This document shows, in pieces, positions 1,868 to 25,983 of a stretch of 64,000 nucleotides of DNA (position 1 is the stretch's first letter; every line of letters begins with the position of its first letter). Position numbers and translations under genes: made by a program. The stretch lies in NCBI GenBank assembly GCA_958295515.1, contig CATQGW010000001.1, positions 777,522 to 841,521 on the forward strand, read 5' to 3'. A model generated the notes under the pieces. That model did no database searches, was not told the DNA's origin, and saw only the letters and a list, made by a program, of their open reading frames with translations. The DNA is from an uncultured Dehalococcoidia bacterium. Its GTDB lineage: Bacteria; Chloroflexota; Dehalococcoidia; Bin125.

Positions 1868-2008
1868 CGACAGTTGGACATCCACTTCCGCACGAATCGG
1901 AGAGGGCAGCACGCCATCAAGCTCGGGCATCGGGAGCGCTTGATTGTGACCCTCGCAGACGACGGATCATTGACAATCCAAGAAGTGAGCTTGCGTCATT
2001 ATGAGTAG
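1868..2008 (+). pseudogene. higB-like toxin remnant with internal deletion (about 46 codons left)
   Basis: LDIHFRTNRRG...QHAIKLGHRERLIVTLADDGSLTIQEVSLRHYE aligns to the N- and C-terminal thirds of the intact HigB at 3398..3694 but lacks the middle; abuts higA-like gene. Confidence 0.55.
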
Positions 2009-3119
2009 CGCAAGCTTCCCCCAACTGCTGCGGAATCGCGCGATTCATCCGGGCCGAATCTTGGCGGATGAGCTTGAGGCGCGTTGCCTCTCGTCGGAAG
2101 ACCTGGCTCAACTCGTGCGACCGTCATCCGAACACATTGACCGTGTGCTGCGAGGTCGGGCGCGCATTAGTGGACGTTTCGCCGATGACCTGGAGCAGGC
2201 GCTTGACACCCCGTCGCACGTCTGGCGGCGCTTGCAGGCCGGATACGACGAGACTCTGGCGCGCCTGGCGGCTGAGCCCGACATGCGCCACGACATCGAG
2301 CTGCTGGGCAAGATTCCCTGGCGGGAGTTCGTCAAGCAGGGCTGGATCGCGGATCGCAGTACGGATGTTGAGCGGGTCGGCGAACTACGAACGCTCTACG
2401 CCGCGGACACGTTGAACGGCGCGATGCGCGACCAGCTCGCCGTGGCGTTCCGAATCACTGCGAAAACGAATGTCGATCCCTGGGCGCTCGCCGCATGGCT
2501 GCAACAGGGCGAGTGGCAAGTGATCGAGAGTCGACTGGCTGAGGGCAGCAAGCTCGCCCGCACCTTCAAGCCGTCGCTGTTCGCGGAAAACCTCCGCAGC
2601 ATTCGCGGGCTCATTGGCCGCGAGTCGTTCTGGCCTGAGATGCGCTCACTCTGCGCGTTTGCCGGCGTGCATCTGGAGTACGTACCCCACATTCGCAACT
2701 CCGGAGCGAATGGCCTCACACGCTGGCTTGATGACGACCGCCCGCTGATTCAGCTCAGCCTCTTGCGGAAGCGGGCGGACATCTTCTGGTTCAGCTTTTT
2801 TCACGAAGCGGCCCATGTCCTAAAGAAGGACCGGGACAAACTGTTCATCCATGGGAAAGAGCTCGGTCGCTCCAGCAGCGCTGAGCGGGCGGCCGACGAG
2901 TTTGCTGCGGACCTGTTGATTCCGCCGGAGGACTGGCGGGCGTTTGGCGAGGGCGGGGTCTTCACCAATGAGACGATCATCGAGTTTGCGCGCGACATCG
3001 GCGTCCACCCCGGCATCGTCGTTGGGCGGCTTCAGTATGAGAAGAACGTTCCGCAGAACCGCCACAACGAACTGCGCGTCTCCCTCGACCTCGACGCCTT
3101 CTCCACCGACCCTGTCTGA
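2001..3119 (+). CDS. HigA-type XRE HTH antitoxin fused to ImmA/IrrE (M78) zinc-peptidase-like domain, copy 1
   Basis: N-terminal HPGRILADELEARCLSSEDLAQLV... HigA HTH; C-terminal FHEAAHV HEXXH motif; 372 aa; paralog of 3695..4816. Confidence 0.75.
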   Translation: MSSASFPQLLRNRAIHPGRILADELEARCLSSEDLAQLVRPSSEHIDRVLRGRARISGRFADDLEQALDTPSHVWRRLQAGYDETLARLAAEPDMRHDIELLGKIPWREFVKQGWIADRSTDVERVGELRTLYAADTLNGAMRDQLAVAFRITAKTNVDPWALAAWLQQGEWQVIESRLAEGSKLARTFKPSLFAENLRSIRGLIGRESFWPEMRSLCAFAGVHLEYVPHIRNSGANGLTRWLDDDRPLIQLSLLRKRADIFWFSFFHEAAHVLKKDRDKLFIHGKELGRSSSAERAADEFAADLLIPPEDWRAFGEGGVFTNETIIEFARDIGVHPGIVVGRLQYEKNVPQNRHNELRVSLDLDAFSTDPV

Positions 3120-3694: not shown

Positions 3695-4816
3695 GTGAAC
3701 GCCATGACTCATCGACTAGCGGCACGGACGCACGGATACCGCGCGACGCACCCCGGCCGGATCTTGCGCCGCGAGCTTGAGGCGCGCGATATGACGCAAG
3801 CTGCTCTCGCCGCGCGAATGGGCCGCCCGACGCAGGTGATCAACCAGATCATCGGCGAGAAAAAGGCGGTCACCGCCGAGACTGCGCGCGGCCTGGAGCA
3901 TGTCTTGGGCATTCCTCGGCATGTCTGGATGAACCTCCAGTCGAACTACGCGCTCGCGCTTGACCGCCTTGCGGAGGAAGAGCGGCTGGAAGATGAGGAG
4001 CATGCACTGCTGGATGCGCTCGGCGCGGCCACGATCCGCGAAATGATTCGACAGGGCTGGATTGAGAAACGCGAGACGGCAGGGGCGCAGCTCTCGGAGC
4101 TGCTCTCGTTCTTCGGAGTGCAGACGCTCCACGGTCTGGAGCGCACGCCAAGCGCCGCCGCTTTCCGTGTGACGGCCGGCGCGAAGGTTGAACCCTGGCG
4201 GCTCGCGGCTTGGATGCGACGCGGTGAAATCATCGCGGACCAGACGGACCTTCCCGCATCTTTCAACTCCGACCGGTTCCGACGCCTGCTGCCCGACCTT
4301 CGCGGCGAAACGCGAAGCGAGAATCCCTGGCCGCAGCTTCGTGCGCGATGTGCGGCTGTGGGTCTCGCTGTGGTTGTGGTGCCGGCGCTGCCCAAGTCGG
4401 GTGCGAACGGCGTCGCCTATTGGCTTGGGCGCGACCGACCGGTGATCCAGCTCAGCTTGCGGAACAAGCGCGCCGACATCTTCTGGTTCAGCTTCTTCCA
4501 CGAGGCCGCGCATGTCCTGGATGGGTACCGCGCAGACGCGGCGATCAACCTCGAGCGTGTGCCGCGAGACGACCCTATGGAGCGGGCGGCGGATCAGTTT
4601 GCTGCGGACCTCTTGATTCCGCCGGAGGACTGGCGGGTGTTTGGCGAGGGCGGCGTCTTCACCAATGAGACGATCGTTGAGTTTGCGCGCGACATTGGGA
4701 TTCACCCGGGCATCGTCGTCGGGCGGCTTCAGTATGAGAAGAAAGTTCCGCAGAACCGCCATAACGAACTGCGCGTCTCCCTCGACCTCGACGCCTTCTC
4801 CACCGACCCGGTCTGA
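3695..4816 (+). CDS. higA: HigA-type XRE HTH antitoxin fused to ImmA/IrrE (M78) zinc-peptidase-like domain, copy 2
   Basis: HPGRILRRELEARDMTQAALAARMGRPTQVINQIIGEKKAVTAETARGLEHVLGIPRHVWMNLQSNYAL is a HigA HTH signature; FHEAAHV HEXXH motif; start abuts higB stop. Confidence 0.8.
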   Translation: MNAMTHRLAARTHGYRATHPGRILRRELEARDMTQAALAARMGRPTQVINQIIGEKKAVTAETARGLEHVLGIPRHVWMNLQSNYALALDRLAEEERLEDEEHALLDALGAATIREMIRQGWIEKRETAGAQLSELLSFFGVQTLHGLERTPSAAAFRVTAGAKVEPWRLAAWMRRGEIIADQTDLPASFNSDRFRRLLPDLRGETRSENPWPQLRARCAAVGLAVVVVPALPKSGANGVAYWLGRDRPVIQLSLRNKRADIFWFSFFHEAAHVLDGYRADAAINLERVPRDDPMERAADQFAADLLIPPEDWRVFGEGGVFTNETIVEFARDIGIHPGIVVGRLQYEKKVPQNRHNELRVSLDLDAFSTDPV

Positions 4817-4895
4817 GCGGCGACGTTATGCCACTTGGCGTGGCGCGATCCGCTGGCGATCCGCTAGCCTTGCGCTGAGCTCAGGAACTGGGATT

Positions 4896-7800
4896 ATGCA
4901 TAGGCGCACGATCGACATGGCTGTGAGCAGCGCCGCCGGGCGGTTGCTGCTGCGGCAATTGCGGGGGGGGGGGGGTGTAATGTCCCTCCCTGTCGGCGTG
5001 CTTCGGCCGACTGCGCTGCTGATCGCGTTGATCGGCGTGCTTGCGCTGGTCGGCGTGGCGCTGCGCTCGGAGGCCGTGGCGCAGACCAACAACGTGACCG
5101 TGGAGTTCACCCGCGTCGCCGTCGCTGAGCGCCTCGTGACCGATCGGTACAGCCAGACAGGTCCGTTCTCGCAGAACAACTACGGAATCATCCTGCGGCC
5201 CAACGACCTGACCATCAGCGGGGCAGCCCGAGTGCGGATCAGGTTCAGCGAGACGGTCAGCAGCTTCACGCTGGCGAACCTGACGGCAACCAACGCGACG
5301 CTCTCGAACCTGCAGGTGGAGACGGCCAACCGGCGTTGGACGTTCGACGTGACGCCGACGGCGGACGGCGCGGTCAGCATCAGCATCGCGGCCGGCGCAG
5401 TGAACGCCGCCGCCGATGCGACGCGCGGCAATGCGTCGGCGCAATTGAGCATGACCGCGGCGCTCGCCGCGCCCAAAGTGGTCTGGACCGACTTCACCTC
5501 GGCGACAACCCGGCTACAACGCACGGGGCCATATAGCGCCGGCACCCAGATTGACCTGAAGGTGATCTTCAGCGAGAACGTGACGGTTAGCGGCGTCCCG
5601 ACGGTCGGTCTGCACACGCCCAGCAAGACGCCGGGGTCGAAGACGTACAACGCGTCGTATCACAGCGGCAGCGGGACATCGGTGCTGCTCTTCCGCTACA
5701 CCGTGCCGTCCGGGCAGAGCTGGCTAGCCGGCCGCACCACGATCAATTCGTCGGCGATCAGCCTGCCGTCGAGCACCTCGATCGCCGACGCGTCGGGCAA
5801 CGCGGCGACGCTGACCCTGCCGCCGCGGGTGATCAAGGTGGAGCGGCACTTGCCCGCGCCCGCGCCCGGCGAACGCGCGCCGGCCGGGGTGGTCGGCGAC
5901 TCCCACGACTGGGTGTTCACCTTTAGCGAGCCGGTCACGGTGACGCAGGCGCCCGGCGCCGCAGCGCCGTTCTTCCTGGTCGGCTTTACCCTCCGGACCC
6001 CCATCAGCCCCACCCGCACCCGGGGAAACGCGCCCGCGAACTACCTGGAGGGCAGCGGCACGAACCAGCTCACCTTCCGTTACACGGTGCGAGCCGCCGA
6101 CGGTGTCGCTACCGATTCCAGCTTCGTCCCCGACAGCTATCCGTATATCCGGGTCCCCGACGGCTCAGGCGTCCGCAACGCGGCCGGGATTGACGTCCAC
6201 GGGCGAGTTCGCGAGGTCGTCAACCTCATCACCGCGCGCGAAGGGACACGGTTCGGGCGCTCACTCAGACTCTCGTTCTCGTCGATCCACGACGTCATTG
6301 TCCATCTGACCAGCAGCGATCCGGCGCGGGCGACGATCGAACCCAGTTCGTTCACGTTCTTGAGCAGCAACACCGACGCCGACCACTGGAGTACCCGGCA
6401 ACCCTTCATCGTCACGCTGCACCGCGACGATGATGAGGACGACAACGAAGTCACGATCTCCTACCGCTTCGAGAGCGATCTCACGATCATTGACGGCCGC
6501 ACCGGCACGTACTTCAAATTTCTCCTCCAGGAAGCCTTGCCCGGGGTGCCGACGGAGGTCCCCAGCGACACCCGGTCCGAAGGGACGCGGTTCACGATTC
6601 CATTCGCGCTGACGGAGTCGTTCGAGCAGGATGTGATCGTCCACCTGAGCAGCAGCCCTCCGGGGCGGATGACGTTCGAGCCCAGTTCGGTCAGGTTCCT
6701 GGGCTTCAACACCGACCCAGACCACTGGATGATCCCGCAGACCGTGACGGTTACGCTGCTCCCGGACAGCGATGCCGAAGACGACGAAGTCAGGATCCTC
6801 TACCGCTACGAGAGCGTTGACCCGTCCGTTCACGAGACCGCGGGAACGCTTACGACCTACACCGCCGCGGACAGCGCCAACGCGGAGTACGACGCGGCGA
6901 GTCTCCCCACGGACCTGCGGCTGGAGCTGGGCCTGGTGGAGGACTCCGACAATGTGGTGCCGCCCGGGGTGGAGCGGCGGGTTGCGGCGAAGCTGATCTA
7001 CAGCGGCGGCTACGTACCGCTGCAGGTCTCGGCGGACAGCTGGCTTCGGATCAGCGGCAGCGTGGAGTGGGAAGACCGGGATCGTCGGCGGCTGGACCTC
7101 GCGCGGCAGGAGACTCAGTACCTGGGCGACGCGCCGCCCTGCACGAGCCGCACGATTAACAACGTCGAGACCTGGAGCTGCGATGTGACGGTTGACGCGG
7201 CCCGCTTCGTGGTCGCGCCGGGCACGCCGGACGGAGCATTCACGATCTCCGGCAACATAGTCGTCAATGGTCGCGACTACCCCGTCGAGCTGGATGTGAC
7301 GGTGGGCACGGTCGCTGAGGTGGCCTCGGCGGAGCTGGGCTTCGCGACCGATATCGCGCCGGGCGACTCGACCGACACGCCGACCAACAACAACATCGCC
7401 GATGATCGTCCGTACCCGGACGCGATTGCGGTTGGGGAGAGCACGACGCTGCAGCTGGCGGTGCTCAACGAGCGGGGCACGGCCTCGCATACCGGCGAAA
7501 TCAGCTCGCTCGTTTTCACCACCACGGGCGGGACATTGAGTCTCGCCAACCCGGTGGGCGACTGCGTGGGCGGCGGCGGCAGCAGCTGCCAGGTGCCGGT
7601 CAACCTGCTGACCACCGACAACGCGGACGACATCCGGGTGACGCTCACGCATCCCGGGCTGGAGCAGCTGGGCGCGGGTGTGGTGCGGGCGCTCGTGGTG
7701 TCCAAAGACGGCGACACAGTCAACGCCGATCCGCTCACGGTGACCTTCCTCGGCCCCGCCGAGTCGATCGCGATCGCCGAGCCCGCCACGGCGGTGCTGA

Positions 7801-8762
7801 ACTACGACCCGCCCGCCCCAGACGGCGGCGGCGCAGATGTCCGCGATCTGCTGAAGCTGTCGGTTATCGGGTCCGATGCCAGCGGCCGTACGGTGCCGCT
7901 GACGGCGCCGTTCGGCAGAGTGATTGTCAGGGATCCCGACGGGCGGCTGGTCTGGAACGGCTCGAGCTACGCGGTGCAGAACGGGATGCGGATCGACTGG
8001 CCGCTGCGGGAGCGGGATGATGACGGGGCGCTCGTGGATGGCGACTCCAGCAAGAGCGGGGTTCAGCCGAAATATATCCGCGATGCGGACGGCAATCTGC
8101 AGGTGCAAGTTGATATTGAGGTGGATGAGGCGGCGCAGCTGACGAAGGGGGAGTACACGATCGAGCTGCGCGCCATCGGGGAGACGGCTGAGCAGACCTT
8201 CTCGGTCGGCGGCGAGCCGGCGGAGGTCGCGCTGGGCGAACCGACAGGCTCGACGGAGGACGGCGGGCGGCTGACCGTGACCGCGACGCTGACTGATGCG
8301 GACGGCAACCTGGTGGGGGAGGGGACGCCGGTGCGTTGGGAAGAGGGCAGCGTGGGGTCGCATGTGGTGTTGGTGCAGATCTCCGCTGAGGCGAGGACGA
8401 GCGGCGGCAGCGCGTCGGCGACGTATCTGGTGGTGGGGCGGGGAACGGCCTGGGTGCGGGCGAGTTCGGGGGAGGCGACGGACACGCGGGTGATGTTCAA
8501 CCTGGGCGCGCCGCCTGCGCCAGCTGCGCTGGCCAACCCCGCGGAGTCGCTCAGCAGTCATAGGCCGGGCGCGTTTGCGTCCTGGCTCGGCAGGGGGGCG
8601 ACGAGCGCTTCCGCGCTGCTGGCGGGGCTCGACGGGATTGATTCGATCTCCGTGTGGCGCAATGGCGCTTGGCTGCGCTATGAGGTGGTGGACGGCGCGG
8701 CGGCGGGCGGTGGGGTGGACTTTGAGGTGCGGCGGGGCGAGATCCTGCGTTTGGGCGGCTGA
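4896..8762 (+). CDS. giant secreted/surface repeat protein, paralog 1 (alternative start ATG 4979 immediately after G13 tract)
   Basis: From ATG 4896 the frame runs through a G13 tract (encoding RGGGGV) into MSLPVGVLRPTALLIALIGVLALVGVALRSEAVAQ signal peptide; internal ~100 aa duplicated domain (..HLTSSDPARATIEPSS.../..HLSSSPPGRMTFEPSS...); C-terminal region shared with 11032..14442 and 17972..21658. Confidence 0.7.
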   Translation: MHRRTIDMAVSSAAGRLLLRQLRGGGGVMSLPVGVLRPTALLIALIGVLALVGVALRSEAVAQTNNVTVEFTRVAVAERLVTDRYSQTGPFSQNNYGIILRPNDLTISGAARVRIRFSETVSSFTLANLTATNATLSNLQVETANRRWTFDVTPTADGAVSISIAAGAVNAAADATRGNASAQLSMTAALAAPKVVWTDFTSATTRLQRTGPYSAGTQIDLKVIFSENVTVSGVPTVGLHTPSKTPGSKTYNASYHSGSGTSVLLFRYTVPSGQSWLAGRTTINSSAISLPSSTSIADASGNAATLTLPPRVIKVERHLPAPAPGERAPAGVVGDSHDWVFTFSEPVTVTQAPGAAAPFFLVGFTLRTPISPTRTRGNAPANYLEGSGTNQLTFRYTVRAADGVATDSSFVPDSYPYIRVPDGSGVRNAAGIDVHGRVREVVNLITAREGTRFGRSLRLSFSSIHDVIVHLTSSDPARATIEPSSFTFLSSNTDADHWSTRQPFIVTLHRDDDEDDNEVTISYRFESDLTIIDGRTGTYFKFLLQEALPGVPTEVPSDTRSEGTRFTIPFALTESFEQDVIVHLSSSPPGRMTFEPSSVRFLGFNTDPDHWMIPQTVTVTLLPDSDAEDDEVRILYRYESVDPSVHETAGTLTTYTAADSANAEYDAASLPTDLRLELGLVEDSDNVVPPGVERRVAAKLIYSGGYVPLQVSADSWLRISGSVEWEDRDRRRLDLARQETQYLGDAPPCTSRTINNVETWSCDVTVDAARFVVAPGTPDGAFTISGNIVVNGRDYPVELDVTVGTVAEVASAELGFATDIAPGDSTDTPTNNNIADDRPYPDAIAVGESTTLQLAVLNERGTASHTGEISSLVFTTTGGTLSLANPVGDCVGGGGSSCQVPVNLLTTDNADDIRVTLTHPGLEQLGAGVVRALVVSKDGDTVNADPLTVTFLGPAESIAIAEPATAVLNYDPPAPDGGGADVRDLLKLSVIGSDASGRTVPLTAPFGRVIVRDPDGRLVWNGSSYAVQNGMRIDWPLRERDDDGALVDGDSSKSGVQPKYIRDADGNLQVQVDIEVDEAAQLTKGEYTIELRAIGETAEQTFSVGGEPAEVALGEPTGSTEDGGRLTVTATLTDADGNLVGEGTPVRWEEGSVGSHVVLVQISAEARTSGGSASATYLVVGRGTAWVRASSGEATDTRVMFNLGAPPAPAALANPAESLSSHRPGAFASWLGRGATSASALLAGLDGIDSISVWRNGAWLRYEVVDGAAAGGGVDFEVRRGEILRLGG
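4963..4975 (+). repeat. G13 homopolymeric tract at translation start of giant protein paralog 1
   Basis: 13 consecutive G counted directly (gcaattgc-G13-tgtaATG). Confidence 0.9.
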
Positions 8763-8869
8763 GCTGCCTTCCACCGAGCCTGCCTGAGCTGCGCAAGCCC
8801 TTGCGGGAATCTTTATGATCGCCTTATTGGCTTGCGCGCCCGTTGGGCGTTCCCTGAAGGAGTCTGAAA

Positions 8870-10600
8870 ATGGCGAAGTTCGATGTCCTGATTCGCGGCG
8901 GCACGGTGGTGGATGGCACGCGCGTGCCGAGGTTCCAGGCCGATGTCGGGATTAAGGATGGGCGGATCGCGCAGATTGGCGGGCGGATGGATCCGGCCGA
9001 CGCGGACCAGCTGCTCGAGGCCGAGGGGCTGATCGTCGCGCCCGGCTTCGTGGACCTGCACACGCACTACGACGCGCAGATTCAGTGGGATCCCTACTGC
9101 ACGATCTCGGGCTGGCACGGCGTGACCTCGGTGGTGCTGGGCAACTGCGGCTTCGGCTTCGCGCCGGTGCGCGAGGAGGAGCGGGACCGCGCGATGCTGA
9201 CGATGTCGCGCACGGAGGCGATTCCGTTCGACTCGATGAAGGCGGGGATGCTCTGGGACTGGGTTTCCTTCCCGGAGTGGCTGGACACGCTGGACCGCAT
9301 CCCCAAGGGGGTGAACTGCCTGTCGTACATGCCGATTGCGCCGCTGATGATCTGGGTGATGGGCCTGGAGGCGGCGAAGAATCGGCGGGCGACGGAGGAG
9401 GAAATCCGCGAGATGCAGCGGCTGCTGCACGAGGCGATGGATGCCGGGGCGTGCGGCTGGTCGACGCAGCGGCTGGGCGAGAACTCGGTGCAGGCGGACT
9501 ACGACGGCACGCCGATGGTGACCGACATCATGAGCGACAACGAATGCCTGGCGCTGGCCGAGGTGCTGCGGGATCGGGATGAAGGGTTCATCCAAATCAC
9601 ACAGGCGACGGGCGACATCAAGAGCGATCTGGCGTTCGAGGCGGAGCTGGCGCGCGTGTCGGGCCGCCCGATTCTGCACAACGTGATCGCGCCCAACGCG
9701 CAGCGCCCGGAGTCGCACACCAAGTCGCTCAAGTGGCTGGCCGACTGCAACGCGCGGGGCGAGCGGATTTTCGGCCAGGCCTTCACGATTCGCTCGGCCT
9801 TCGCCTACACGCTTGAGGACTGGAACCTCTACGACTCGTCGCCGGCCTGGAACTACGCGACCACCGGCAGCGTGGAGGAGAAGCAGGCGAAGTTCGCCGA
9901 TCCCGAGGTGCGCGAGCGGCTCAAGGCGGAGATGGACGACGCGATTGAGAAGCTCGGCCAGACGCAGGCGATCGGCGGCTCGATTGAGAAGGTGATGGTC
10001 CAGCATCTCGAGGCCAAGCCGGAGCTTGAGCAGTACGTCGGCCTGACGCTCGCCGAGGTCGGGGAGCGGATGGGCAAGCACCCGATCGACGCGATGCTGG
10101 ACCTGGCGCTGGCGACCGACCTCAAGGCGGAGTTCCTGACCGAGGTGACGAACGCCAACGAGGATCACATGGCGGAAATCGTCGAGTCGCCCTTCACCAT
10201 CCCGGGCGTCTCCGACGGCGGCGCGCACACCAAGTTCCTGACGGCGGGCTCGTACCCGACGGACTTCCTGATCTGGATGGTGCGCGACACGGGGAAGGTG
10301 ACGCTCGAAGAGGCGCACTACCGGCTCTCCTACCTGCCGGCGCGGGCGGGCGGCTTCATCGGTCGCGGCGCGCTGACGGAGGGCGCGCCGGCGGATGTGG
10401 TCGTCTACGACCTCGACGCGCTGAAGCTGGATCCGGAGTTCCAGGGCGAAATCGTGCATGATTTCCCGGCCGGGGAGTGGCGGCGGATTCAGCGCCCGCA
10501 CGGTTACCGCTGGATTCTGGTCAACGGCGAGGTGACGATGCAGGACGGGGAGGAGACGGGCGCGACGCCGGGCAAGTTGCTCCGCCACGGCCGCGCGTAG
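8870..10600 (+). CDS. D-aminoacylase / N-acyl-D-amino-acid deacylase family amidohydrolase, copy 1
   Basis: MAKFDVLIRGGTVVDGTRVP...GRIAQIGG...LIVAPGFVDLHTHYDAQ metal-dependent amidohydrolase signature; AAGGAG SD 8 nt upstream; 576 aa. Confidence 0.8.
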   Translation: MAKFDVLIRGGTVVDGTRVPRFQADVGIKDGRIAQIGGRMDPADADQLLEAEGLIVAPGFVDLHTHYDAQIQWDPYCTISGWHGVTSVVLGNCGFGFAPVREEERDRAMLTMSRTEAIPFDSMKAGMLWDWVSFPEWLDTLDRIPKGVNCLSYMPIAPLMIWVMGLEAAKNRRATEEEIREMQRLLHEAMDAGACGWSTQRLGENSVQADYDGTPMVTDIMSDNECLALAEVLRDRDEGFIQITQATGDIKSDLAFEAELARVSGRPILHNVIAPNAQRPESHTKSLKWLADCNARGERIFGQAFTIRSAFAYTLEDWNLYDSSPAWNYATTGSVEEKQAKFADPEVRERLKAEMDDAIEKLGQTQAIGGSIEKVMVQHLEAKPELEQYVGLTLAEVGERMGKHPIDAMLDLALATDLKAEFLTEVTNANEDHMAEIVESPFTIPGVSDGGAHTKFLTAGSYPTDFLIWMVRDTGKVTLEEAHYRLSYLPARAGGFIGRGALTEGAPADVVVYDLDALKLDPEFQGEIVHDFPAGEWRRIQRPHGYRWILVNGEVTMQDGEETGATPGKLLRHGRA

Positions 10601-10669
10601 CGGCCGCCGCTGCTCGAGCTGGCACATCGCCGCAGCTGGTCTACGCTTCCGCCAAGGGGGAATCTGCTG

Positions 10670-10930
10670 ATGGCTTCGGATAGTTCTGCCGTCGTGCGGC
10701 TCCGCTTCGGTGTCGATCTGCTGCGTGTGGTCAGCGGACGCGCCCGCGAGATCCTCACCGCATCTGGCCAGCGTGAGACCGGTACCGATTTCGACAAGCT
10801 TGATGCCGCGATCCAGGAGATGTTCGGCCAGATCACCGACGAGGAGTGGGAACAGTTGCCGACAGACGGTGCGCGACGCCTCGATTTCTATCTCTATGGC
10901 CGAGAAAAGCCGTCCGCGCGCGACGCATGA
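10670..10930 (+). CDS. small acidic hypothetical protein (86 aa)
   Basis: ORF with AAGGGGG SD-like sequence upstream; no recognised family. Confidence 0.35.
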   Translation: MASDSSAVVRLRFGVDLLRVVSGRAREILTASGQRETGTDFDKLDAAIQEMFGQITDEEWEQLPTDGARRLDFYLYGREKPSARDA

Positions 10931-11031
10931 GAGAGGTGTTTGTCGACGCCGAATTCCGCGATCTCGGCTGCCGCTGCCTCCTACGCGACGACTGAGTCGC
11001 TGCCACCCTCTCCGCCGCCACGTGGTAGCTT

Positions 11032-14000
11032 GTGCGGAGCGGGTTGGGAAGATGCGGATCCATCCAAATGCTTCACAATGTCGTGCGTTTGTGGCCGCGC
11101 TTGCTGGGGCTGGTGGTGTTGGCGGGACTGCTGGGCGTGGCGGTGGTGACCATTTCGCTTGCTCGGGCTGCGCCGCCTGGGGACCTTGCGCTGACGTTGA
11201 GCCTGGTTGAGGACTCCGACAACATTGTGCCGCCGGGCTCGACGCTGCGGGTTGCGGCGACGCTGACGTATAGCAGCGATTACCACGTGTTTTTGGATGT
11301 CCCGCCCAGCGCGCTGCGCATCGCCGGGGATCTGGAGTGGGATTCGTTGGGGCGTCGCGCGCACCCCTTGACGCGCCAGGGGCACCTGGGCGGACGAGTG
11401 GGATGGGAAGACATCGCAGTGCAGGCGGATCCTGCGGGCGACATCGCTGTGTTCGGGATGTCTTGGGACTCCGGTATATGCTGCGTGGGATCCGCGGATA
11501 TCTACGTGGGTGGCGCGTTTGCGGCGCATTTTTCAGGCGCAGGACCACGGGCCAACCTATTTGGCCACAGCGTTGATGTCGGCGGAGGTGTGATTGTCAT
11601 CGGCGCGCCTGACGGAGAAAACGGCGCAGCGTATGTGTTTGAGCGCAACGCGGCCGGCGTCTGGACCGAGGTTGCCGAACTCACGCCTGGTTCCAACCCT
11701 GCGTACACGGATCCTGCAACTCAGGATAAGCCGCGGTGGTTCGGCCTCGGCGTCGCGATCAGCGACGACGGGAGCACGATCGTTATCAGCAAAGTCCCTT
11801 CACCGGGCTTGGGCGTGGCGCACAATTGGGGCGCGACCGGGCATGTGTTCACCAGGCCCGCCGGCGGTTGGCGCGATATGGACACCAATCACCCGAGTGT
11901 GACTGCGCTGCGATACCACGACGTCGGCGACGGCAACACCGACCCCGACGACATGTTCAGCATCGCGTCACGCAATGACGCATACGGCGATGCGGACATC
12001 GCCGGCAACGGTTCGGTGGTCGCGCTGGGCGGATATCCCCTGCCGCGCACTGCGGATGCGGCCGACCAGCAGGGCGCGGTGCTGATCTTCCGTCGTCCGG
12101 CGGGCGGTTGGGCCGACGCCGGCGGAGCCGATGGCATGCTGGAGCAGGATGCGGTGCTGACGGCGACGGATGACGACAGCAACAACATTCGGCTCGGTCG
12201 GGCGATTGCGATCAATGTTGATGGCAGCGTGGTGCTGGCAGGCGCCCGCGGCACGGTCGGGACGTCACTTGGATCCCTCAGCTGGCCGGGCTCGGCGTTT
12301 GTCTGGGTGCAGCCCGCGACTGGCTGGGCCGATACGAACGATGCAACGGCGACGTTGAGCGATTCGACCGCGAACAACGAAGATCAGTTTGCTGACCACG
12401 TTGCCATCAGCGACTCGGGCGATCGGATCATCGTGTCCGACAGCGGCAGCCGTGCGGCGCATGTGTTCGATAAGCCTGCGCTCGGTTGGCAGGACGACGC
12501 GTCGGCCGACTTGCTGCTTACCTCGCCGAAACCGACCTCGTTGGATCCGGAAGTTGGGACGTTGGGGGTGGGCTTCGGTGGCCACACGGCGTTGGATGGA
12601 GAGTCGACGGCGATCGTTGGGCAGCTGGTGTGGCAGCTGTCAGTCCTCCGCAGTCACGCTGGCGGCTTCGCGTTCGATCTCGCCGCTGCCGACCCGCAGG
12701 CGGGCGCTGAGCGTCTGTTCCCCTGCACATCCAGGAGCGCTGATGGTCTGACTACTTGGACCTGTTCCGTCTACGTCGGCGATACTTCGATCACGATTCC
12801 GCTGGGGACGCCTGACGGGACGTTTACGATTTCTGGCGTGCTTACTGTGGACGGCGTGGAGTACAGCGATGCGCTGGAAGTTACGATCGACGAGGTCAAT
12901 GAAGTGACTGAGGTGCAGTTCAACTTTGCTGAGTATGAGAGCGGGCTGAAGCAGGGCGAGCGGTATCCGGGCGCGATTGCGGCTGGGGAGACTACGCGGC
13001 TGCGGTTGGGTGTGCTGAATGAGCATGGGAAAGCCTCTGCCGGGGGTAGCATTGCTTCGGTGCTGTTTACGACCACCGCGGGCTCGCTGAGCACGAGCAT
13101 CGGCGGCGGCTGCATGGGCGGTGGGGGGTTGGTTTGCCAGATTCCGGTGTCGGCGCTGACGGCGGCGAACGCCGACAAGATCGACCTGACCGTTGCGCAC
13201 CCCGGGCAGGGGAGCTCCGGCGTCGCCGAAATCCGCGCCACCGTACTGGCTGTCGACGGGGAGACCTTTAACGCCGATCCCTTACGAGTGACGTTGACCG
13301 GCGAGGCTGCGTTGCTGGCGATCAGCGAACCGGCGACCAGCGTGTTGAATGTGCATACTGAGGACTTCGGCGCGGAGCGGGATGACCGCGACATGCTGAC
13401 GCTGACGGTCAGGGCGACGGACGAAGAGGGGCGGAAGGCGGCTGTGCCGACGCATTCGCGGCGCGTGGTGATCACGGGTCCCGACGGTCGCCGGGTTGAT
13501 GTGGGAGACATCCCATCCTCACCCGCGTCGGAACACGCGGTGATCGCGGTCTGGCCCAAGGTGCGGGTGACGTTTGCGCCGCACCTCGGCGCTTCGAGAA
13601 CCGCTGCGGAGCTGCTGGGCAACTATGACGTCGTCAACAAGTGGTCCCTCGGCGGCAGCTGGCAGTGGTACAGCGTTGACGCGAACGGCGATCCTGCGCG
13701 CGGGGCGACCAACTTCGTCGCCAATCAGGGCGACGTACTGCGCTTCGACGATCTCGTTCTGGACGCCGACGGCAACCTGCAGGTGGAGCTCGATGTGGAC
13801 GCCGGCCGCGCGAACCCGCTGACGCCCGGCGAGTACACGCTCGAGCTGCGCGCCGGGGCGCTGACTGCGCGACGCAGCTTCAGCGTGGTCGGGGATGCCG
13901 CCGCGCTGACGCTCAGCGAAGCGACAGGCTCGACGGAGGACGGCGGGCGGCTTTCCCTGACCGCGACGCTGACCGACGGGGACGGTAATACCGTGGCGGA

Positions 14001-14442: not shown

Positions 14443-14541
14443 GCTGCTTCCCCATCGTCCTGCAAACTCGTTTTGCAATCTCTATCTTTTGCGCATTCCG
14501 GTTGGACGCCCGCGCGGCGCGGGTCGGCAAGGAGCGCTGAG

Positions 14542-16272: not shown

Positions 16273-16343
16273 GGATCGCTCCACCCGCTCCGGCTCTTGC
16301 ACGAATCCCCGCCGCAAGGCGGGGGTTCGGGTACCGTACAGAA

Positions 16344-17609: not shown

Positions 17610-17861
17610 ATGAAGTGGATTTTGCTGCACTGCGACCACGACACCGACGAGGTGACGCTGACTGAGTTTGACCGCGAAGACTCCGACGCGGCGATCGCCG
17701 CGCTCAACGCGGCTGAGCGGGGCAAGCGGCCGCAGGACGAAGTTGTGCTCTTCTTCTCCGAAGGTGAAGAGTCGCTCCGCCGCACCCACTCCCGCTATTT
17801 CTACGATGAGCGCGAAATTGCCGAGCAGCTCCGCAAGACGCTCGCCGCTATCCGCCGCTAG
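17610..17861 (+). CDS. small acidic protein (83 aa), paralog of 17143..17451
   Basis: MKWILLHCDHDTDEVTLTEFDRED...EVVLFFSEGEESLRRTHSRYFYDE; same motif set as upstream paralog. Confidence 0.5.
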   Translation: MKWILLHCDHDTDEVTLTEFDREDSDAAIAALNAAERGKRPQDEVVLFFSEGEESLRRTHSRYFYDEREIAEQLRKTLAAIRR

Positions 17862-17956
17862 CCTTACGCTGGGCTCGGGAATTGGGACTATGCGTAGGGG
17901 CACGATGGACATGGCTGTGAGTAGGGCTGCCGGGCGGTTGCTGCTGCGGCAATTGC

Positions 17957-17969
17957 GGGGGGGGGGGGG
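17957..17969 (+). repeat. G13 homopolymeric tract at translation start of giant protein paralog 2
   Basis: 13 consecutive G (gcaattgc-G13-taATG); upstream conserved leader ORF from ATG 17890 is out of frame with the main ORF at this tract length. Confidence 0.9.
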
Positions 17970-17971
17970 TA

Positions 17972-20900
17972 ATGCGCCTCTGGCGGCGCGTGTTTCGGCC
18001 GACTGCGCTGCTGATTGCGTTGATCGGCGTGCTCGCGCTCGGCGGCGTGGCGCTGCGCTCGGAGGTTGCCGCGCAGACCAACGACGTGACCGTGGAGTTC
18101 ACCCGCGTCGCCCACATGAAGCGAAACCAGATCCATGGCTTCCTCCAAGGCACCACCACGCGTCCGAACGACCTGGCCATCAGCGGGGCAGTCCGAGTGC
18201 ACATCAGGTTCAGCGAGGAGGTCAGCGGCTTCACGCTGGCGAGCCTGACGGCGAGCAACGCGACGCTCTCGAACTTGCACATGCGGCAGACCAACTGGCG
18301 TTGGACGTTCAGCGTGACGCCGACGGCGGACGGCGCGGTCAGCATCAGCATCGCGGCGGGCGCGGTGCAGGCCGCCGCCGACGCGACGCGCGGGAATGCG
18401 TCGGGGCAATTGAGCATGACCGCCGCGCTCGGCGCGCCCAAAGTGATCTGGGCCGACCTCACCACCTCGGGGTCAACCTGGCAACGCCATAGGCAGCGGT
18501 ACAGCGCCGGCACCCGGATTGACCTGACGGTGATCTTCAGCGAGTACGTGACGGTCAGCGGCGTCCCGACGGTCGGTCTGCACACGACCAGCAAGCCGGC
18601 GCCCAAGGCGTACGATGTGCCGTTTGCCGCAAGCGACGGGTCGGTGCTGCTCTTCAGCTACACCGTGCCGGCCGGGCAGAACTGGTCCCGCGGCTGGACC
18701 ACGATCACTTCGTCGGCGATCAGCCTGCCGTCGAGCGCCTCGATCACCGACGCGGATGGCAACGCGGCGACGCTGACCCTGCCGCCGCGGGTGATCGAGG
18801 CCGAGCGGCTCTTGGCCATGCCCGCGCCCGGCGAACGCGGGCCGCAAGGCGTGGTCGGCGACTCCCACGACTGGACGATCACCTTTAGCGAGCCGGTCAC
18901 GGTGACTCAGGCGCCCGGCGCCGAAGCGCCGTGGATCGCGATCAGAGCCACCCTCCAGGACGGCAACTCGGGAACGGTGCGCGCGAACTACCTGGAAGGC
19001 AGCGGCACGGATACGCTCACCTTCCGTTACACGGTGCGCGCCGCCGACAACGTCGCTACCGATGCCAGCTATGGCTTCGACAGCGCACGGTATGTCCGCG
19101 TCCCCGACGGCGCAGGCGTCCGCAACGCGGCGGGGCTTGATGTCAGCGGGCGATTTGCCACTGCCGCCAACGTCGCCATCCAGCGCGAAGGGACGCAGTC
19201 CGTGCGCGGAGCCAGACTCTCGTTCTCGTCGGTCCACGACGTCACCTTCCACCTGACCAGCAGCGATCCGGACCGGCTGACGATCGAACCCAGTTCGCTC
19301 ACGTTCTTGAGCAGAAACACCGACGCCGACCACTGGAGGACCTGGCAGGCCGTCACCTACACGGCGCACAGTGACGATGATGAGGAAACCAACGAAGTCA
19401 CGGTCTCCTACCGCTTCGAGAGCGATTACACGGCCATCGACGGCCTCACCGGCAGGTACCTCCTGTTTCGCATCCAGGAAGCCGCAGTCGGGGCGCCGAC
19501 GGAGGTCCCGAGCGGCACCCGGTCCGAAGGGACGCGGTTCACGATTCCATTCGCGCTGACGGAGCCGTTGGAGCAGGATGTGATCGTCCACCTGAGCAGC
19601 AGCGATCCGGCGCGGATGACGTTCGAGCCCAGCGCGGTCAGGTTCCTGGGTACCAACACCGACCCCGACCACTGGATGATCCCGCAGACCGTGACCGTTA
19701 CGCTGCTCCCCGACAGCGATGGCGAAGACGACGAAGTCATGGTTCTCTACCGCTACGAGAGCGTTGACCCGCCCGTTCACGGCACCGAGGGAACGCTCGC
19801 GACATACACCGCCGCGGACAGCGCCAACGCGGACTACGACGCGGCGAGTCTCCCGGCGGACCTGCGGCTGGAGCTGGGGCTGGTCGAGGATTCCGACCAG
19901 ATTGTTCCGCCCGGGGGCGAGCGGAAGGTTGCGGTGAAGCTGATCTACAGCGGCGGCTACGTACCGCTGCAGGTCTCGGCGGACAGCTGGCTACGGATCA
20001 GCGGCAGCGTGGAGTGGGAGGACCGAGATCGGCGGCGGCTCGGTCTCGCGCGGCAGGAGACTCAGTACCTGGGCAGCGCGCCGCCCTGCCAGAGCAGCAC
20101 GATCGACACAGTCGAGACCTGGAGCTGCGATGTGCTGATCGACGCCGCGCGCTTCGTGGTGCCGCCGGGCACGCCCGACGGAGCATTCACGATCTCCGGC
20201 AACATAGTCGTCAATGGTCGCGACTACCCCGGCGAGCTGGAGGTGACGGTGGGCACGGTCGATGAGGTCGCCTCGGCCGAGCTGGACTTTGCGACCGATA
20301 CCGCTGATGATCGTCCGTATCCCGACGCGATTGCGGTTGGTGAGAGCACGACGCTGCAGTTGGCGGTGCTGAACGAGCACGACAAGGCCTCGCATACCGG
20401 CGAAATCAGCTCGCTCGTGTTCACCACCACGGGCGGGGCATTGAGTCTCGCCCACCCGGTGGGCGAGTGCGTGGGCGGGGGCGGCAGCAGCTGCCAGGTG
20501 CCGGTGGATCTGCTGACGACCGACAACACGGACCAGGTGCGGGTGACGCTCACGCATCCCGGGCTGGAGCAGCTGGGCGCGGGTATCGTGCGTGCGCTCG
20601 TGGTGTCCAAAGACGGCGACACCATCAACGCCGATCCGCTCACGGTGACCTTCCTCGGCCCCGCCGAGTCGATCATGATTGGCGAACCTGCCACGGCAGT
20701 ACTTAACTACGACCCGCCGGAGCGGGACGGCGGCGGCGAAGATGTCCGCGATCTGCTGAAGCTGTCGGTCATCGGGTCCGATGACAGCGGCCGCACGGTG
20801 CCGCTGACGGCGCCGTTCGGCAGAGTGATCGTTAGAGCCCCGGATGGCATGGTTGTCTGGAGCGGCTCGAGCTATGAGGTGCAGAACGGGATGCGGATCG

Positions 20901-21658
20901 ACTGGCCGCTGCGCGAGCGGGACGATGACGGGGCGCTCGTGGACGGCGACTCCAGCAAGAGCGGGATTCAGCCGAAATATATCCGCGATGCGGACGGCAA
21001 CCTCCAGGTGCAAATCGATATTGAGGCGGACGAGGCATCGCAGCTGACGAAGGGTGACTACACGATCGAGCTGCGCGCTATCGGGGAGACGGCCGAGCAG
21101 ACCTTCTCGGTCGGCGGCGCGCCGGCGGAGATTGCGCTGAGCGAACCGGGAGGCTCAACGGAAGACGGCGGGCGGCTGACCGTGACGGCGAGATTGACCG
21201 ACAGGGACGGCAACCCGGTGGGGGACGGGACGCCGGTTCGCTGGCAAGAGGGCAGCGTGGGGTCGCATGTGGTGTTGGTGCAGATCTCTGCTGAGTCGAG
21301 GACCAGCGGCGGCAGCGCGTCGGCGACGTATCTGGTGGTTGGGCGGGGCACCGCTTGGGTGCGGGCGAGCTCAGGCGAGGCGGCGGACACGCGGGTGATG
21401 TTCAACCTCGGAGTGCCGCCGCCGCCGCCTAACCCTGCGGAGCAGCTCAGCAGCCGTCGGCCCGGCGCGTTCGCGGCCTGGCTCGGCAGGGGCGCGACGA
21501 GCGCGTCGGAGCTGTTGGCGGGGCTTGACGGGATCGACTCGATCACCGTTTGGCGCGACGGGGGCTGGCTGCGCTATGAGGTGGTGGACGGTGCAGCGGC
21601 ATCCGGTGGGGTGGACTTTGAGGTGCGGCGGGGCGAGATCGTGCGTCTGGGCGGCTGA
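17972..21658 (+). CDS. giant secreted/surface repeat protein, paralog 2
   Basis: MRLWRRVFRPTALLIALIGVLALGGVALRSEVAAQ signal peptide; colinear with paralog 1 throughout including duplicated ~100 aa domain and C-terminal ...VDFEVRRGEIVRLGG. Confidence 0.75.
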   Translation: MRLWRRVFRPTALLIALIGVLALGGVALRSEVAAQTNDVTVEFTRVAHMKRNQIHGFLQGTTTRPNDLAISGAVRVHIRFSEEVSGFTLASLTASNATLSNLHMRQTNWRWTFSVTPTADGAVSISIAAGAVQAAADATRGNASGQLSMTAALGAPKVIWADLTTSGSTWQRHRQRYSAGTRIDLTVIFSEYVTVSGVPTVGLHTTSKPAPKAYDVPFAASDGSVLLFSYTVPAGQNWSRGWTTITSSAISLPSSASITDADGNAATLTLPPRVIEAERLLAMPAPGERGPQGVVGDSHDWTITFSEPVTVTQAPGAEAPWIAIRATLQDGNSGTVRANYLEGSGTDTLTFRYTVRAADNVATDASYGFDSARYVRVPDGAGVRNAAGLDVSGRFATAANVAIQREGTQSVRGARLSFSSVHDVTFHLTSSDPDRLTIEPSSLTFLSRNTDADHWRTWQAVTYTAHSDDDEETNEVTVSYRFESDYTAIDGLTGRYLLFRIQEAAVGAPTEVPSGTRSEGTRFTIPFALTEPLEQDVIVHLSSSDPARMTFEPSAVRFLGTNTDPDHWMIPQTVTVTLLPDSDGEDDEVMVLYRYESVDPPVHGTEGTLATYTAADSANADYDAASLPADLRLELGLVEDSDQIVPPGGERKVAVKLIYSGGYVPLQVSADSWLRISGSVEWEDRDRRRLGLARQETQYLGSAPPCQSSTIDTVETWSCDVLIDAARFVVPPGTPDGAFTISGNIVVNGRDYPGELEVTVGTVDEVASAELDFATDTADDRPYPDAIAVGESTTLQLAVLNEHDKASHTGEISSLVFTTTGGALSLAHPVGECVGGGGSSCQVPVDLLTTDNTDQVRVTLTHPGLEQLGAGIVRALVVSKDGDTINADPLTVTFLGPAESIMIGEPATAVLNYDPPERDGGGEDVRDLLKLSVIGSDDSGRTVPLTAPFGRVIVRAPDGMVVWSGSSYEVQNGMRIDWPLRERDDDGALVDGDSSKSGIQPKYIRDADGNLQVQIDIEADEASQLTKGDYTIELRAIGETAEQTFSVGGAPAEIALSEPGGSTEDGGRLTVTARLTDRDGNPVGDGTPVRWQEGSVGSHVVLVQISAESRTSGGSASATYLVVGRGTAWVRASSGEAADTRVMFNLGVPPPPPNPAEQLSSRRPGAFAAWLGRGATSASELLAGLDGIDSITVWRDGGWLRYEVVDGAAASGGVDFEVRRGEIVRLGG

Positions 21659-21689
21659 GCGAGAGGCCGGCTACGCCGAGTTCTGAGCC

Positions 21690-21765: not shown

Positions 21766-21769
21766 CGCG

Positions 21770-25947: not shown

Positions 25948-25968
25948 CGCCTGCGCTTGCTGTAACGC

Positions 25969-25983
25969 GGGGGGGGGGGGGGG
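25969..25983 (-). repeat. C15 (plus-strand G15) homopolymeric tract between signal peptide and mature domain of lipoprotein gene
   Basis: 15 consecutive G counted on plus strand. Confidence 0.9.

What the first reader, a model, noticed from the sequence alone, without database searches (positions are those of the whole stretch)
4840..4990. Conserved ~130-nt leader ending in a G13 tract at the start of giant surface-protein gene 1 (in frame: ON)
The leader 4896..4978 (MHRRTIDMAVSSAAGRLLLRQLR) is conserved at about 90% nucleotide identity with the leader of paralog 2. It runs through 13 G (read as GGGGV) directly into the signal peptide Met, so with G13 the leader and main ORF are in one frame. 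Long G/C homopolymers at a translation start are the classical substrate for slipped-strand mispairing phase variation. That is unexpected in a 68% GC genome, where the tract also resembles an SD element.
Basis: seen in the sequence. Interest (0 to 1): 0.8.

Follow-up and report, generated by a model that had tools for sequence, protein, structure and literature searches.

The report
Slippery poly-G switch on exported-protein genes
A run of 13 G's sits between a short leader and the export signal of a very large secreted protein gene, and its length differs between closely related uncultured Dehalococcoidia genomes (6 to 17 G), so it most likely acts as a mutational on/off or dimmer switch of the kind known from pathogens.

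Summary
G13 lies at 4963-4975. The leader ATG at 4896 is in frame with ATG 4980, which starts a 1260-aa exported Big_12 protein. The paralog has G13 at 17957-17969, with its leader out of frame.

Comparison supports hypermutability. In five closely related ~3 Mb assemblies, equivalent loci carry G6, G4AG6, G12, G13, G14, G15 or G17 between almost identical flanks.

Homologs at 35-47% identity in other Dehalococcoidia MAGs keep G13-G14 at the same position. There the leader differs and has its own AGGAG-N6-GTG start. Several have no start codon after the tract, so the tract is intragenic. One gene occurs as G14 (frameshifted, call truncated), G15 and G18 (in frame).

This fits a homopolymer contingency locus, as in Neisseria pilC. 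It appears unreported for this lineage in the library searched.

For this particular gene, ON/OFF is not clean:
- An ATG follows the tract.
- The tract can serve as a Shine-Dalgarno-like site.
- A conserved TAATG gives three registers: fused, stop-start coupled, and out of frame.

Switching within a population is untested. A third tract, C15 in a lipoprotein gene at 25969-25983, is off by one base.

The parts
4861..4895 (+). Conserved non-coding segment at the start of the paralogous unit, upstream of the leader ATG. It holds a weak AGGA/GGGA SD-like motif. It can also be read as a promoter, TTGCGC-N16-(TGn)GATTAT, that overlaps the ATG.
   Evidence: Homology with paralog 2 begins exactly here. 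Only non-3-nt indels fall in this segment: a 1-nt insertion and a 9-nt duplication. The simple sigma-70 scan found nothing, so the promoter reading is mine.
4896..4962 (+). Leader ORF, MHRRTIDMAVSSAAGRLLLRQL(R). It is Arg-rich, has a second in-frame ATG at 4917, and runs into the tract.
   Evidence: The public gene call for this contig starts here (P0139, 1288 aa). The frame is open in all 14 close loci. Substitutions by codon position are 8/11/6, so there is no amino-acid constraint.
4963..4975 (+). G13 homopolymer, read as (R)GGGG in the leader frame. It is the presumed slipped-strand site and also an SD-like purine run for ATG 4980.
   Evidence: Equivalent loci carry G12 and G14 (same TGTAATG junction) and G6 at the syntenic position.
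4976..4982 (+). Junction TGTAATG. TAA (4978-4980) overlaps ATG (4980-4982). G13 fuses the leader to the main ORF. G12 would end the leader at TAA on the ATG. G14 would send the leader out of frame across the start.
   Evidence: TAATG, TGATG or TAA follows the tract in most loci examined.
4980..8762 (+). Main ORF of 1260 aa. It has an N-terminal signal peptide (predicted cleavage after AVA, codons 1-34, 4980-5081), one Big_12 Ig-like domain, and no other hydrophobic segment.
   Evidence: There is no PDB or NCBIfam match.
17855..17956 (+). Paralog 2: conserved upstream segment and leader ORF (ATG 17890, MRRGTMDMAVSRAAGRLLLRQL).
17957..17969 (+). Paralog 2 G13 tract. With this length the leader reads on out of frame, as part of the ORF that ends at 18492. 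G12 would fuse it. G14 would stop it at the TAA of TAATG.
   Evidence: Equivalent loci in relatives carry G12, G14, G17 and G17.
17970..21658 (+). Paralog 2 junction TAATG and main ORF (ATG 17972, 1228 aa, Big_12, signal peptide).
25969..25983 (-). Third long tract, C15 on the minus strand. It lies just after the lipobox Cys of a lipoprotein-like ORF (ATG 26044, MRWIATTICLVLLAMIVAC|SAPPPP). C14 or C17 would join it to ORF 24364-25947, so as assembled it is off by one base.
   Evidence: The L079 ortholog is intact at 559 aa and has GCC GAT CCT CCC instead of the tract. There is a weak Hvo_1808 surface-protein similarity.

Best explanation
The G13 run is a hypermutable homopolymer, a contingency locus. 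It sits at the junction between a short translated Arg-rich leader and the signal peptide of a large exported Ig-like protein. This protein belongs to a multi-copy family in uncultured, probably sponge-associated, Dehalococcoidia.

Slipped-strand mispairing during replication adds or removes G's. This changes the reading-frame relation between the leader ORF and the main ORF.

In family members with no start codon after the tract, this is a plain ON/OFF frameshift switch in the signal-peptide-coding region.

In the two genes of this window, an ATG preceded by TAA follows the tract, so three registers exist:
- Leader fused to the signal peptide. This is gene 1 as assembled (G13).
- Leader terminated at TAA overlapping the ATG, allowing stop-start coupling.
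- Leader ribosomes running out of frame across the start. This is gene 2 as assembled (G13).

I infer full expression in the first two registers and reduced, not necessarily zero, expression in the third. The G run can also act as an SD-like site for the downstream ATG.

What is shown:
- The tract, the frames and the junction sequences.
- The length differences between genomes.
- Conservation of the tract across the family.
- That the leader is required in some members.
- In-frame and out-of-frame alleles of one gene.

What is inferred:
- Reversible switching within a population.
- Which start codon or codons are used in this gene.
- The expression level of each register.
- Surface exposure of the protein, and the selective agent.
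For: 1. Rarity. G/C runs in the window have lengths up to 7, then 13, 13 and 15. The expected count of runs of 13 or more is 0.06.

2. Length polymorphism with conserved flanks. Fourteen leader loci from the window and five assemblies of ~2.8-3.0 Mb (L001, L078-L081) give these lengths:
- TGTAATG type: G12, G13, G14.
- TAATG-CGC type: G12, G13, G14, G17, G17.
- Others: G15, G4AG6, and G6 four times.
- Downstream of the M78 gene, L001, L080 and L081 have G6 where the window has G13.

3. Deep conservation. In homologs of 35-47% identity from three other Dehalococcoidia MAG chromosomes, G13-G14 lies at the same place between an unrelated leader and the hydrophobic core of the signal peptide.

4. 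The leader is translated in relatives.
- AGGAG-N6-GTG/ATG precedes the leader in L002, L003, L004 and L006, and GGAGG-N9-GTG in L078:751.
- There is no start codon after the tract in L002, L003, L081:10030 and L089. In L081:415 the post-tract ATG is ATA.
- All four G6 loci keep the leader in frame, and their leader indels are 3 or 6 nt.

5. ON and OFF alleles of one gene. L089 has G14, is out of frame, and its gene call is truncated by 67 codons. P0124 and P0021 have G15, and P0121 has G18, both in frame. The number of Gly residues also varies among alleles.

6. All ten G/C runs of 8 or more in about 180 kb of this lineage lie at the 5' end of genes for exported proteins.

7. The organism uses GGAGG/AGGAG with a spacer of about 7 nt. 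This explains why G6+TA+ATG needs the leader start, and why G4AG6+TA+ATG (GGAGG-N6-ATG) does not.
Against: - There are no read-level data. Every length difference is between assemblies, not within a clone.
- The assemblies appear to be long-read hifiasm-style contigs. A 13-17 nt homopolymer may be miscalled by one base, so single ON/OFF assignments, including 'G13 = in frame', are soft.
- In this gene a good ATG and signal peptide follow the tract, and the tract is SD-like. Expression may therefore be largely independent of tract length.
- The leader shows no third-position bias (8/11/6). It is no better conserved than the non-coding stretch upstream.
- A promoter reading, TTGCGC-N16-GATTAT, would place the transcription start after ATG 4896.
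- Register counts over 19 loci are 9 fused, 7 coupled and 3 out of frame (tallied). My chi-square estimate gives p of about 0.2, so they do not differ significantly from random.
Confidence: 0.7

Rival explanations
1. The G run is only a ribosome-binding element for ATG 4980/17972. GGGGG pairs with the CCUCC anti-SD through one G-U wobble. The upstream 'leader' is untranslated 5' UTR or promoter, and length differences between strains are neutral slippage with no effect on expression.
For: - The tract ends 2-4 nt before an ATG that opens a normal signal peptide.
- L001:20485 has GGGGAGGGGGG at the same place, which is GGAGG-N6-ATG.
- The leader has no codon-position bias.
- Gene callers use the post-tract ATG in many alleles.
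Against: - An SD needs 5-6 purines, not an uninterrupted run of 13-17 that persists across homologs of 35-47% identity.
- Several family members have no start codon after the tract, or have lost it (L002, L003, L081:10030, L081:415, L089). Their leaders carry their own canonical SD.
- G6 loci keep the leader in frame through 3- and 6-nt indels.
- L089 is a real out-of-frame allele of a gene that is in frame elsewhere.
Confidence: 0.15
2. The tract acts at the RNA level rather than through heritable DNA slippage. RNA polymerase could slip on the long G run and produce mixed-frame mRNAs from every allele. Alternatively, the G run could form a G-quadruplex or pair with the CCCUCCC just after the AUG to control initiation.
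For: - The minimum-free-energy folds of the par1-type and G6-type leaders pair the G run with CCCUCCC and enclose the AUG.
- Homopolymers of this length are in principle prone to transcriptional slippage (general knowledge).
Against: - The folds are not more stable than shuffled sequence for the two window loci (z -1.3 and -0.8).
- Paralog 2 lacks the C-rich partner.
- There is no Rfam match.
- DNA-level length differences between genomes are directly observed. This rival does not explain them, though it could coexist with them.
Confidence: 0.08
3. The tract is a promoter-spacer switch, as in Bordetella fim or Neisseria opc/porA, where tract length sets the -35/-10 spacing.
For: TGTAAT after the tract in gene 1 superficially resembles a -10 hexamer.
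Against: - TGTAAT lacks the critical A at position 2 and is absent in paralog 2 (TAATGC).
- A TTGCGG/-10 pair would have a spacer of only about 9 nt.
- Such a promoter would start transcription after the ATG.
- The consensus scans found no promoter.
- Distant loci place the tract well inside an ORF.
Confidence: 0.02
4. Homopolymer lengths are assembly or sequencing artefacts, so the apparent variation and the frames carry no information.
For: - Long-read consensus is least reliable in long homopolymers.
- One-base differences (G12/G13/G14) are within plausible error.
Against: - Differences such as G6 against G13, G12 against G17, or G4AG6 are too large for consensus error.
- The tract sits at the same gene position in independent assemblies from at least two analyses (ERZ19489113, ERZ25070167) and in three GTDB chromosomes.
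- In-frame alleles differ by whole Gly codons.
Confidence: 0.05

Closest known systems
Neisseria pilC1/pilC2 (homopolymeric G tract inside the reading frame; frameshift ON/OFF)
   Same: - An uninterrupted G run of about 9-20 in the 5' coding region of a gene for an exported adhesion-related protein.
- Length changes shift the frame.
- Alleles differ in tract length between strains (PMC5953494).
- From memory of Jonsson et al. 1991, the run lies in the signal-peptide-coding region, as it does here. I could not read that paper.
   Different: - The phylum differs (Chloroflexota/Dehalococcoidia against Betaproteobacteria), as does the lifestyle (probably a sponge symbiont against a human pathogen).
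- The proteins are unrelated.
- Here a second start codon and a TAA overlap follow the tract, so the OFF state may be leaky.
- No experimental switching data exist here.
Haemophilus influenzae lic1 (CAAT)n translational switch with alternative start codons (from memory)
   Same: The repeat lies between alternative in-frame and out-of-frame start codons and the body of the gene. Three repeat registers give three expression levels.
   Different: - lic1 uses a tetranucleotide repeat, not a homopolymer.
- Its product is a cytoplasmic LOS-modifying enzyme, not an exported protein.
- The three-level behaviour is demonstrated there and only inferred here.
Homopolymeric-tract phase variants in high-GC Mycobacterium tuberculosis (PMC11898584)
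   Same: Indels in G/C homopolymers serve as a reversible adaptive mechanism in a genome of about 65% GC. High GC content is therefore no barrier.
   Different: - From memory, the tracts there are shorter, typically 7-9 nt.
- They lie in different genes (ESX-1-associated per PMC11898584; glpK from memory).
- The study used clinical isolates.
Bordetella fim and Neisseria opc/porA promoter homopolymers (from memory)
   Same: A long C/G run controls expression of a surface structure in a high-GC genome (Bordetella).
   Different: Those tracts lie in the promoter spacer and act on transcription. That placement was tested here and not met.

Membership tests
Homopolymer/SSR contingency (phase-variable) locus | An uninterrupted repeat far longer than the genome background. 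| tested here: met
   G13, G13 and C15 against a maximum of 7 elsewhere in 64 kb. Expected runs of 13 or more: 0.06.
Homopolymer/SSR contingency (phase-variable) locus | The repeat is placed so that a length change alters expression, either inside the ORF or in the promoter/RBS. | tested here: met
   - The tract is intragenic, with no downstream start, in L002, L003, L081:10030 and L089.
- In window gene 1 it joins the leader ORF to the main ORF in frame.
- The presence of ATG 4980 makes the size of the effect in this gene uncertain.
Homopolymer/SSR contingency (phase-variable) locus | Repeat length differs among closely related genomes while the flanks are conserved. | tested here: met
   G6, G4AG6 and G12-G17 at equivalent loci with near-identical flanks.
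Homopolymer/SSR contingency (phase-variable) locus | In-frame and out-of-frame alleles of the same gene exist. | tested here: met
   L089 G14 (out of frame, truncated call) against P0124/P0021 G15 and P0121 G18 (in frame), all within one 90% cluster.
Homopolymer/SSR contingency (phase-variable) locus | High-frequency, reversible switching within a clonal population. | not testable with these tools
   No reads or cultures are available. This needs tract-length counts from the source sample's reads.
Homopolymer/SSR contingency (phase-variable) locus | The product is surface-exposed or otherwise subject to fluctuating selection. | tested here: inconclusive
   There is a signal peptide, a Big_12 Ig-like domain, and multiple divergent paralogs per genome. 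Localisation is not shown, and there is no PDB or NCBIfam match.
Shine-Dalgarno ribosome-binding site | A purine-rich match to the anti-SD about 5-9 nt upstream of the start codon in use. | tested here: inconclusive
   - Local genes use GGAGG/AGGAG with a spacer of about 7 nt.
- A G run of 10 or more offers GGGGG at that spacing (one G-U wobble).
- L001:20485 has a true GGAGG-N6-ATG at the same place.
- Which start is used in the window is unknown.
Promoter-spacer homopolymer switch | The tract lies between -35 and -10 hexamers upstream of the transcription start. | tested here: not met
   No hexamer pair flanks the tract. A -10 after the tract would exclude the ATG. The tract is inside ORFs in distant loci.
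Known structured cis-regulatory RNA (Rfam) | A match to a curated covariance model, or a fold more stable than shuffled sequence. | tested here: not met
   The only Rfam hits in the window are two tRNAs elsewhere. Fold z-scores are -1.3 and -0.8 for the window leaders.
Big_12 (PF19078) bacterial Ig-like domain proteins | A Pfam match above the gathering score. | tested here: met
   46.8 and 49.8 bits against a cut-off of 27.

The most novel reading that the evidence does not exclude
The tract and its conserved TAATG junction may form a three-state translational switch rather than a binary one. The three states would be a fused long leader, stop-start coupling, and an occluding out-of-frame upstream ORF.

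This switch would be used combinatorially on three or four paralogous giant exported proteins per genome. It would belong to a lineage-wide 'phasome' in uncultured Dehalococcoidia symbionts that also recruits new genes, such as the strain-specific C15 in the lipoprotein gene.

If true, contingency loci would be shown to shape cell-surface heterogeneity in a mutualistic animal microbiome and in a phylum where they have not been described.
Probability: 0.25. Interest if true: 0.75.

Novelty: new member of a known kind. Interest (0 to 1): 0.6.

Why it matters
Homopolymer contingency loci are textbook biology for host-restricted pathogens. I found no paper in the searched library that links them to Chloroflexota/Dehalococcoidia or to sponge symbionts.

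Here the tract is conserved across a whole multi-copy family of ~1100-1300-aa exported proteins. It is conserved in several species-level genomes and varies between co-occurring strains.

That points to stochastic surface variation in an uncultured symbiont. The selective agent might be phage, host phagocytosis or host recognition, but this is speculative.

It also has a practical side:
- Gene callers give these genes inconsistent starts and truncated models.
- Frame calls in long homopolymers of long-read MAGs should be treated as population states, not as pseudogenes.
- The hypothesis can be tested directly with reads that already exist for the source samples.

Tried and rejected
- **Promoter-spacer model.** The consensus scans found nothing, and the geometry does not fit.
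- **Structured RNA leader.** There is no Rfam hit, and the folds are not better than shuffled sequence for the window loci.
- **Coding-constraint test on the leader.** Substitutions by codon position are 8/11/6, so there is no signal either way. Only the indel pattern and the start-codon pattern were informative.
- **Register bias.** Over 19 loci the counts are 9 fused, 7 coupled and 3 out of frame, tallied by hand. My chi-square estimate gives p of about 0.2, which is not significant, and the loci are not independent.
- **JGI metagenome scans for more alleles.** The leader pattern gave 0 hits. The distant-group pattern gave 7 unrelated hits.
- **Exact-protein look-ups.** These failed for the window genes and for P0003, P0006, P0021, P0027 and P0139. 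The window's own record name was therefore not recovered.
- **Identity of the giant proteins.** PDB and NCBIfam searches gave nothing.
- **Corrected hand-reading errors.** L003 (G14) is in frame, not out. In L005 the leader stops at TAA and is not fused. Both were recomputed.
- **Jonsson et al. 1991 (pilC).** The paper could not be read.
Full report
**Observation**

- G13 occupies 4963-4975. It is followed by TGTA and then ATG at 4980.
- ATG 4980 opens a 1260-aa ORF ending at 8762.
- That ORF has an N-terminal signal peptide, MSLPVGVLRPTALLIALIGVLALVGVALRSEAVA|Q, which is its only hydrophobic segment. It also has one Big_12 Ig-like domain.
- ATG 4896 lies 84 nt upstream and is in frame. It gives MHRRTIDMAVSSAAGRLLLRQLRGGGGV-M.

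Paralog 2 has G13 at 17957-17969, followed by TA and then ATG at 17972. Its leader ATG at 17890 is 82 nt upstream, so it is out of frame. Leader-initiated ribosomes would read on to 18492.

The leader is 90.4% identical between the paralogs. It is not a separate island: it is the first 120 nt of a 3.9-kb duplicated unit that is 84.9% identical overall. Homology starts at 4861/17855.

G/C runs in the window end at length 7 and then jump to 13, 13 and 15. Chance would give 0.06 runs of 13 or more.

**Source organism**

Close homologs (70-95% aa identity) come from circular or near-complete contigs of 2.8-3.0 Mb in ENA analysis ERZ19489113. The contig names are in hifiasm style.

More distant homologs (35-47%) lie on chromosomes named 'MAG: Dehalococcoidia bacterium' (OZ241913.1, OZ241849.1, OZ251529.1).

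The same hit list also includes MAGs named Candidatus Poribacteria and Candidatus Poriferihabitaceae. This suggests a sponge host, but that is my inference.

The public gene model for this window's gene 1 is P0139 (1288 aa). It starts at the leader ATG.

**Tract length varies between close relatives**

I extracted the 5' regions of all 14 usable family genes in the window and in loci L001 and L078-L081. The flanks are nearly identical.

| Junction type | Locus and tract length |
|---|---|
| TGTAATG | window G13; L078:10021 G14; L080:10021 G12 |
| TAATG-CGC | window G13; L080:16906 G12; L081:13941 G14; L078:15929 G17; L079:10021 G17 |
| TAAAACGGG | L081:10030 G15 |
| TAATG, interrupted tract | L001:20485 GGGGAGGGGGG |
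| TAATG, short tract | G6 at L001:10093, L080:704 and L078:751 |
| TAATA, short tract | G6 at L081:415 |

Downstream of the M78 gene, L001, L080 and L081 have G6 where the window has G13. Differences of this size are not consensus noise.

All ten G/C runs of 8 or more in about 180 kb of this lineage sit at the 5' end of a gene for an exported protein.

**The tract is conserved far beyond the leader**

In the distant Dehalococcoidia chromosomes the leader sequence is unrelated. Even so, G13 or G14 lies at the same place, just before the hydrophobic core of the signal peptide.

In most of these loci (L002, L003, L004, L006) the leader has its own canonical AGGAG-N6-GTG/ATG start.
- L002 and L003 have no start codon after the tract, so the tract is inside the coding sequence. 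Both are in frame as assembled.
- In L006 the leader is also fused in frame.
- In L004 the leader stops at the TGA of TGATG.
- In L005 the leader stops at a TAA right after the tract, 2 nt before the ATG.

Many gene-called homologs start with a leader followed by GGGG.

**In-frame and out-of-frame alleles of one gene**

Within a single 90%-identity protein cluster:
- P0124 and P0021 read ...ALALSGGGGGPCRS (G15).
- P0121 reads ...SGGGGGGPCRS (G18).
- P0027 and P0125 are called from an internal Met 67 codons downstream.

The DNA for P0125 (L089) has G14. Its leader runs out of frame after the tract, and no start codon follows. Other clusters show the same mixture of leader-containing, post-tract and truncated gene models.

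**Is the leader translated in this subfamily?**

Evidence for translation:
- The four short-tract (G6) loci all keep the leader in frame.
- Their leader indels are 3 or 6 nt.
- L081:415 has lost the post-tract ATG (it reads ATA) yet keeps an intact 1292-aa ORF from the leader ATG.
- L081:10030 has no start after the tract.
- L078:751 has GGAGG 9 nt before a GTG leader start.

Evidence against, or neutral:
- Leader substitutions fall 8/11/6 on codon positions 1, 2 and 3, and the substitution rate equals that of the non-coding stretch upstream. The peptide sequence itself is therefore unconstrained.
- The SD before ATG 4896 is weak (AGGAA-N9).
- The segment TTGCGC-N16-(TGn)GATTAT could instead be a promoter that overlaps that ATG. 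In that case ATG 4917 would be the first start.

**The role of the post-tract ATG**

Local genes use GGAGG/AGGAG with a spacer of about 7 nt.
- G6+TA+ATG leaves too short a spacer. This fits the need for the leader start at those loci.
- GGGGAGGGGGG+TA+ATG is a perfect GGAGG-N6-ATG. At that locus the leader ORF ends at the TAA of TAATG.
- A run of 10 or more G's offers GGGGG, with one G-U wobble, at a suitable distance.

ATG 4980 can therefore probably initiate on its own.

With the conserved TAATG junction there are three registers. In one the leader is fused: gene 1 at G13, or gene 2 at G12. In the second the leader stops on the ATG: gene 1 at G12, or gene 2 at G14 or G17. In the third the leader reads out of frame across the start: gene 1 at G14, or gene 2 at G13.

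The interrupted or short, presumably stable, loci are all in the fused or coupled register. This suggests that those two registers are the expressing states. The numbers are small, however. Over 19 loci the split is 9/7/3 (my tally), which by my chi-square estimate (p about 0.2) is not significantly different from random.

**Rejected alternatives**

- A promoter-spacer switch does not fit the geometry.
- No Rfam family matches the region.
- The predicted pairing of the G run with CCCUCCC around the AUG is absent in paralog 2 and is not more stable than shuffled sequence.
- Pure assembly artefact is excluded by the size of the length differences and by whole-codon Gly differences among in-frame alleles. 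A one-base error at any single locus remains possible, so 'G13 = ON' is a soft call.

**Comparison with known systems**

The closest precedent is Neisseria pilC, which has a genic G(9-20) run and frameshift phase variation (PMC5953494). From memory, that run lies in the signal-peptide-coding region.

The alternative-start, three-level logic resembles Haemophilus lic1 (from memory).

Homopolymer phase variants are also known in high-GC Mycobacterium tuberculosis (PMC11898584).

Full-text searches found no paper that links phase variation by repeats to Chloroflexi/Dehalococcoidia or to sponge symbionts.

**Verdict**

This is a real feature and a new member of a known kind. For this gene, the switch may be graded rather than binary.

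Reversible switching within a population is the missing proof. It could be obtained from the existing reads.

Noticed in passing
window 25969-25983 (minus strand), gene 24364-26044: A C15 tract lies directly after the lipobox Cys of a DUF8575/Hvo_1808-like lipoprotein gene, and the gene is off by one base as assembled. The L079 ortholog has GCC GAT CCT CCC at this spot and is intact (559 aa). The tract is therefore strain-specific and apparently recent.
   Followed up: partly
window 4980-22741; L078, L080, L081: The Big_12 giant-protein genes sit in arrays of 2-4 copies. These are interleaved with near-identical 576-aa amidohydrolase genes (8870-10600; 14473-16272) and an FG-GAP protein of about 1130 aa (11032-14442). 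N-terminal cassettes look shuffled between paralogs. For example, P0141 combines the G6-type leader with the body of the P0012 type. This suggests gene conversion.
   Followed up: partly
window 2001-3119 and 3695-4816: Two tandem HTH + Peptidase_M78 (ImmA/IrrE-like) genes lie directly upstream of gene 1. In L001 the equivalent gene is preceded by a HigB-like toxin gene.
   Followed up: no
L079:9905-9925: There is a 9-nt tandem duplication (AATTGGGAT x2) just upstream of the leader ATG in one ortholog. L078:10021 and L080:10021 carry a 1-nt insertion (GGGATTTATG) at the same place. These would change the spacing of the putative TTGCGC/GATTAT promoter.
   Followed up: no
L002:6636-6645 and 11386-11900: In a distant Dehalococcoidia genome a C10 run lies inside the giant-protein ORF. 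Three C9-C12 runs are embedded in a repeated motif, gtcattcctg-Cn-gtcattcctgcgcagg, downstream of the gene.
   Followed up: no
window 17972-18010: Paralog 2 and its orthologs start MRL(W/G)RR(V/A)(F/L)RP. This is a twin-arginine RRxF pattern that gene 1 lacks, so a Tat-like signal is possible.
   Followed up: no
window 32552-32640 and 32695-32781: Two adjacent long (87-89 nt) tRNA genes are the only Rfam hits in the window.
   Followed up: no
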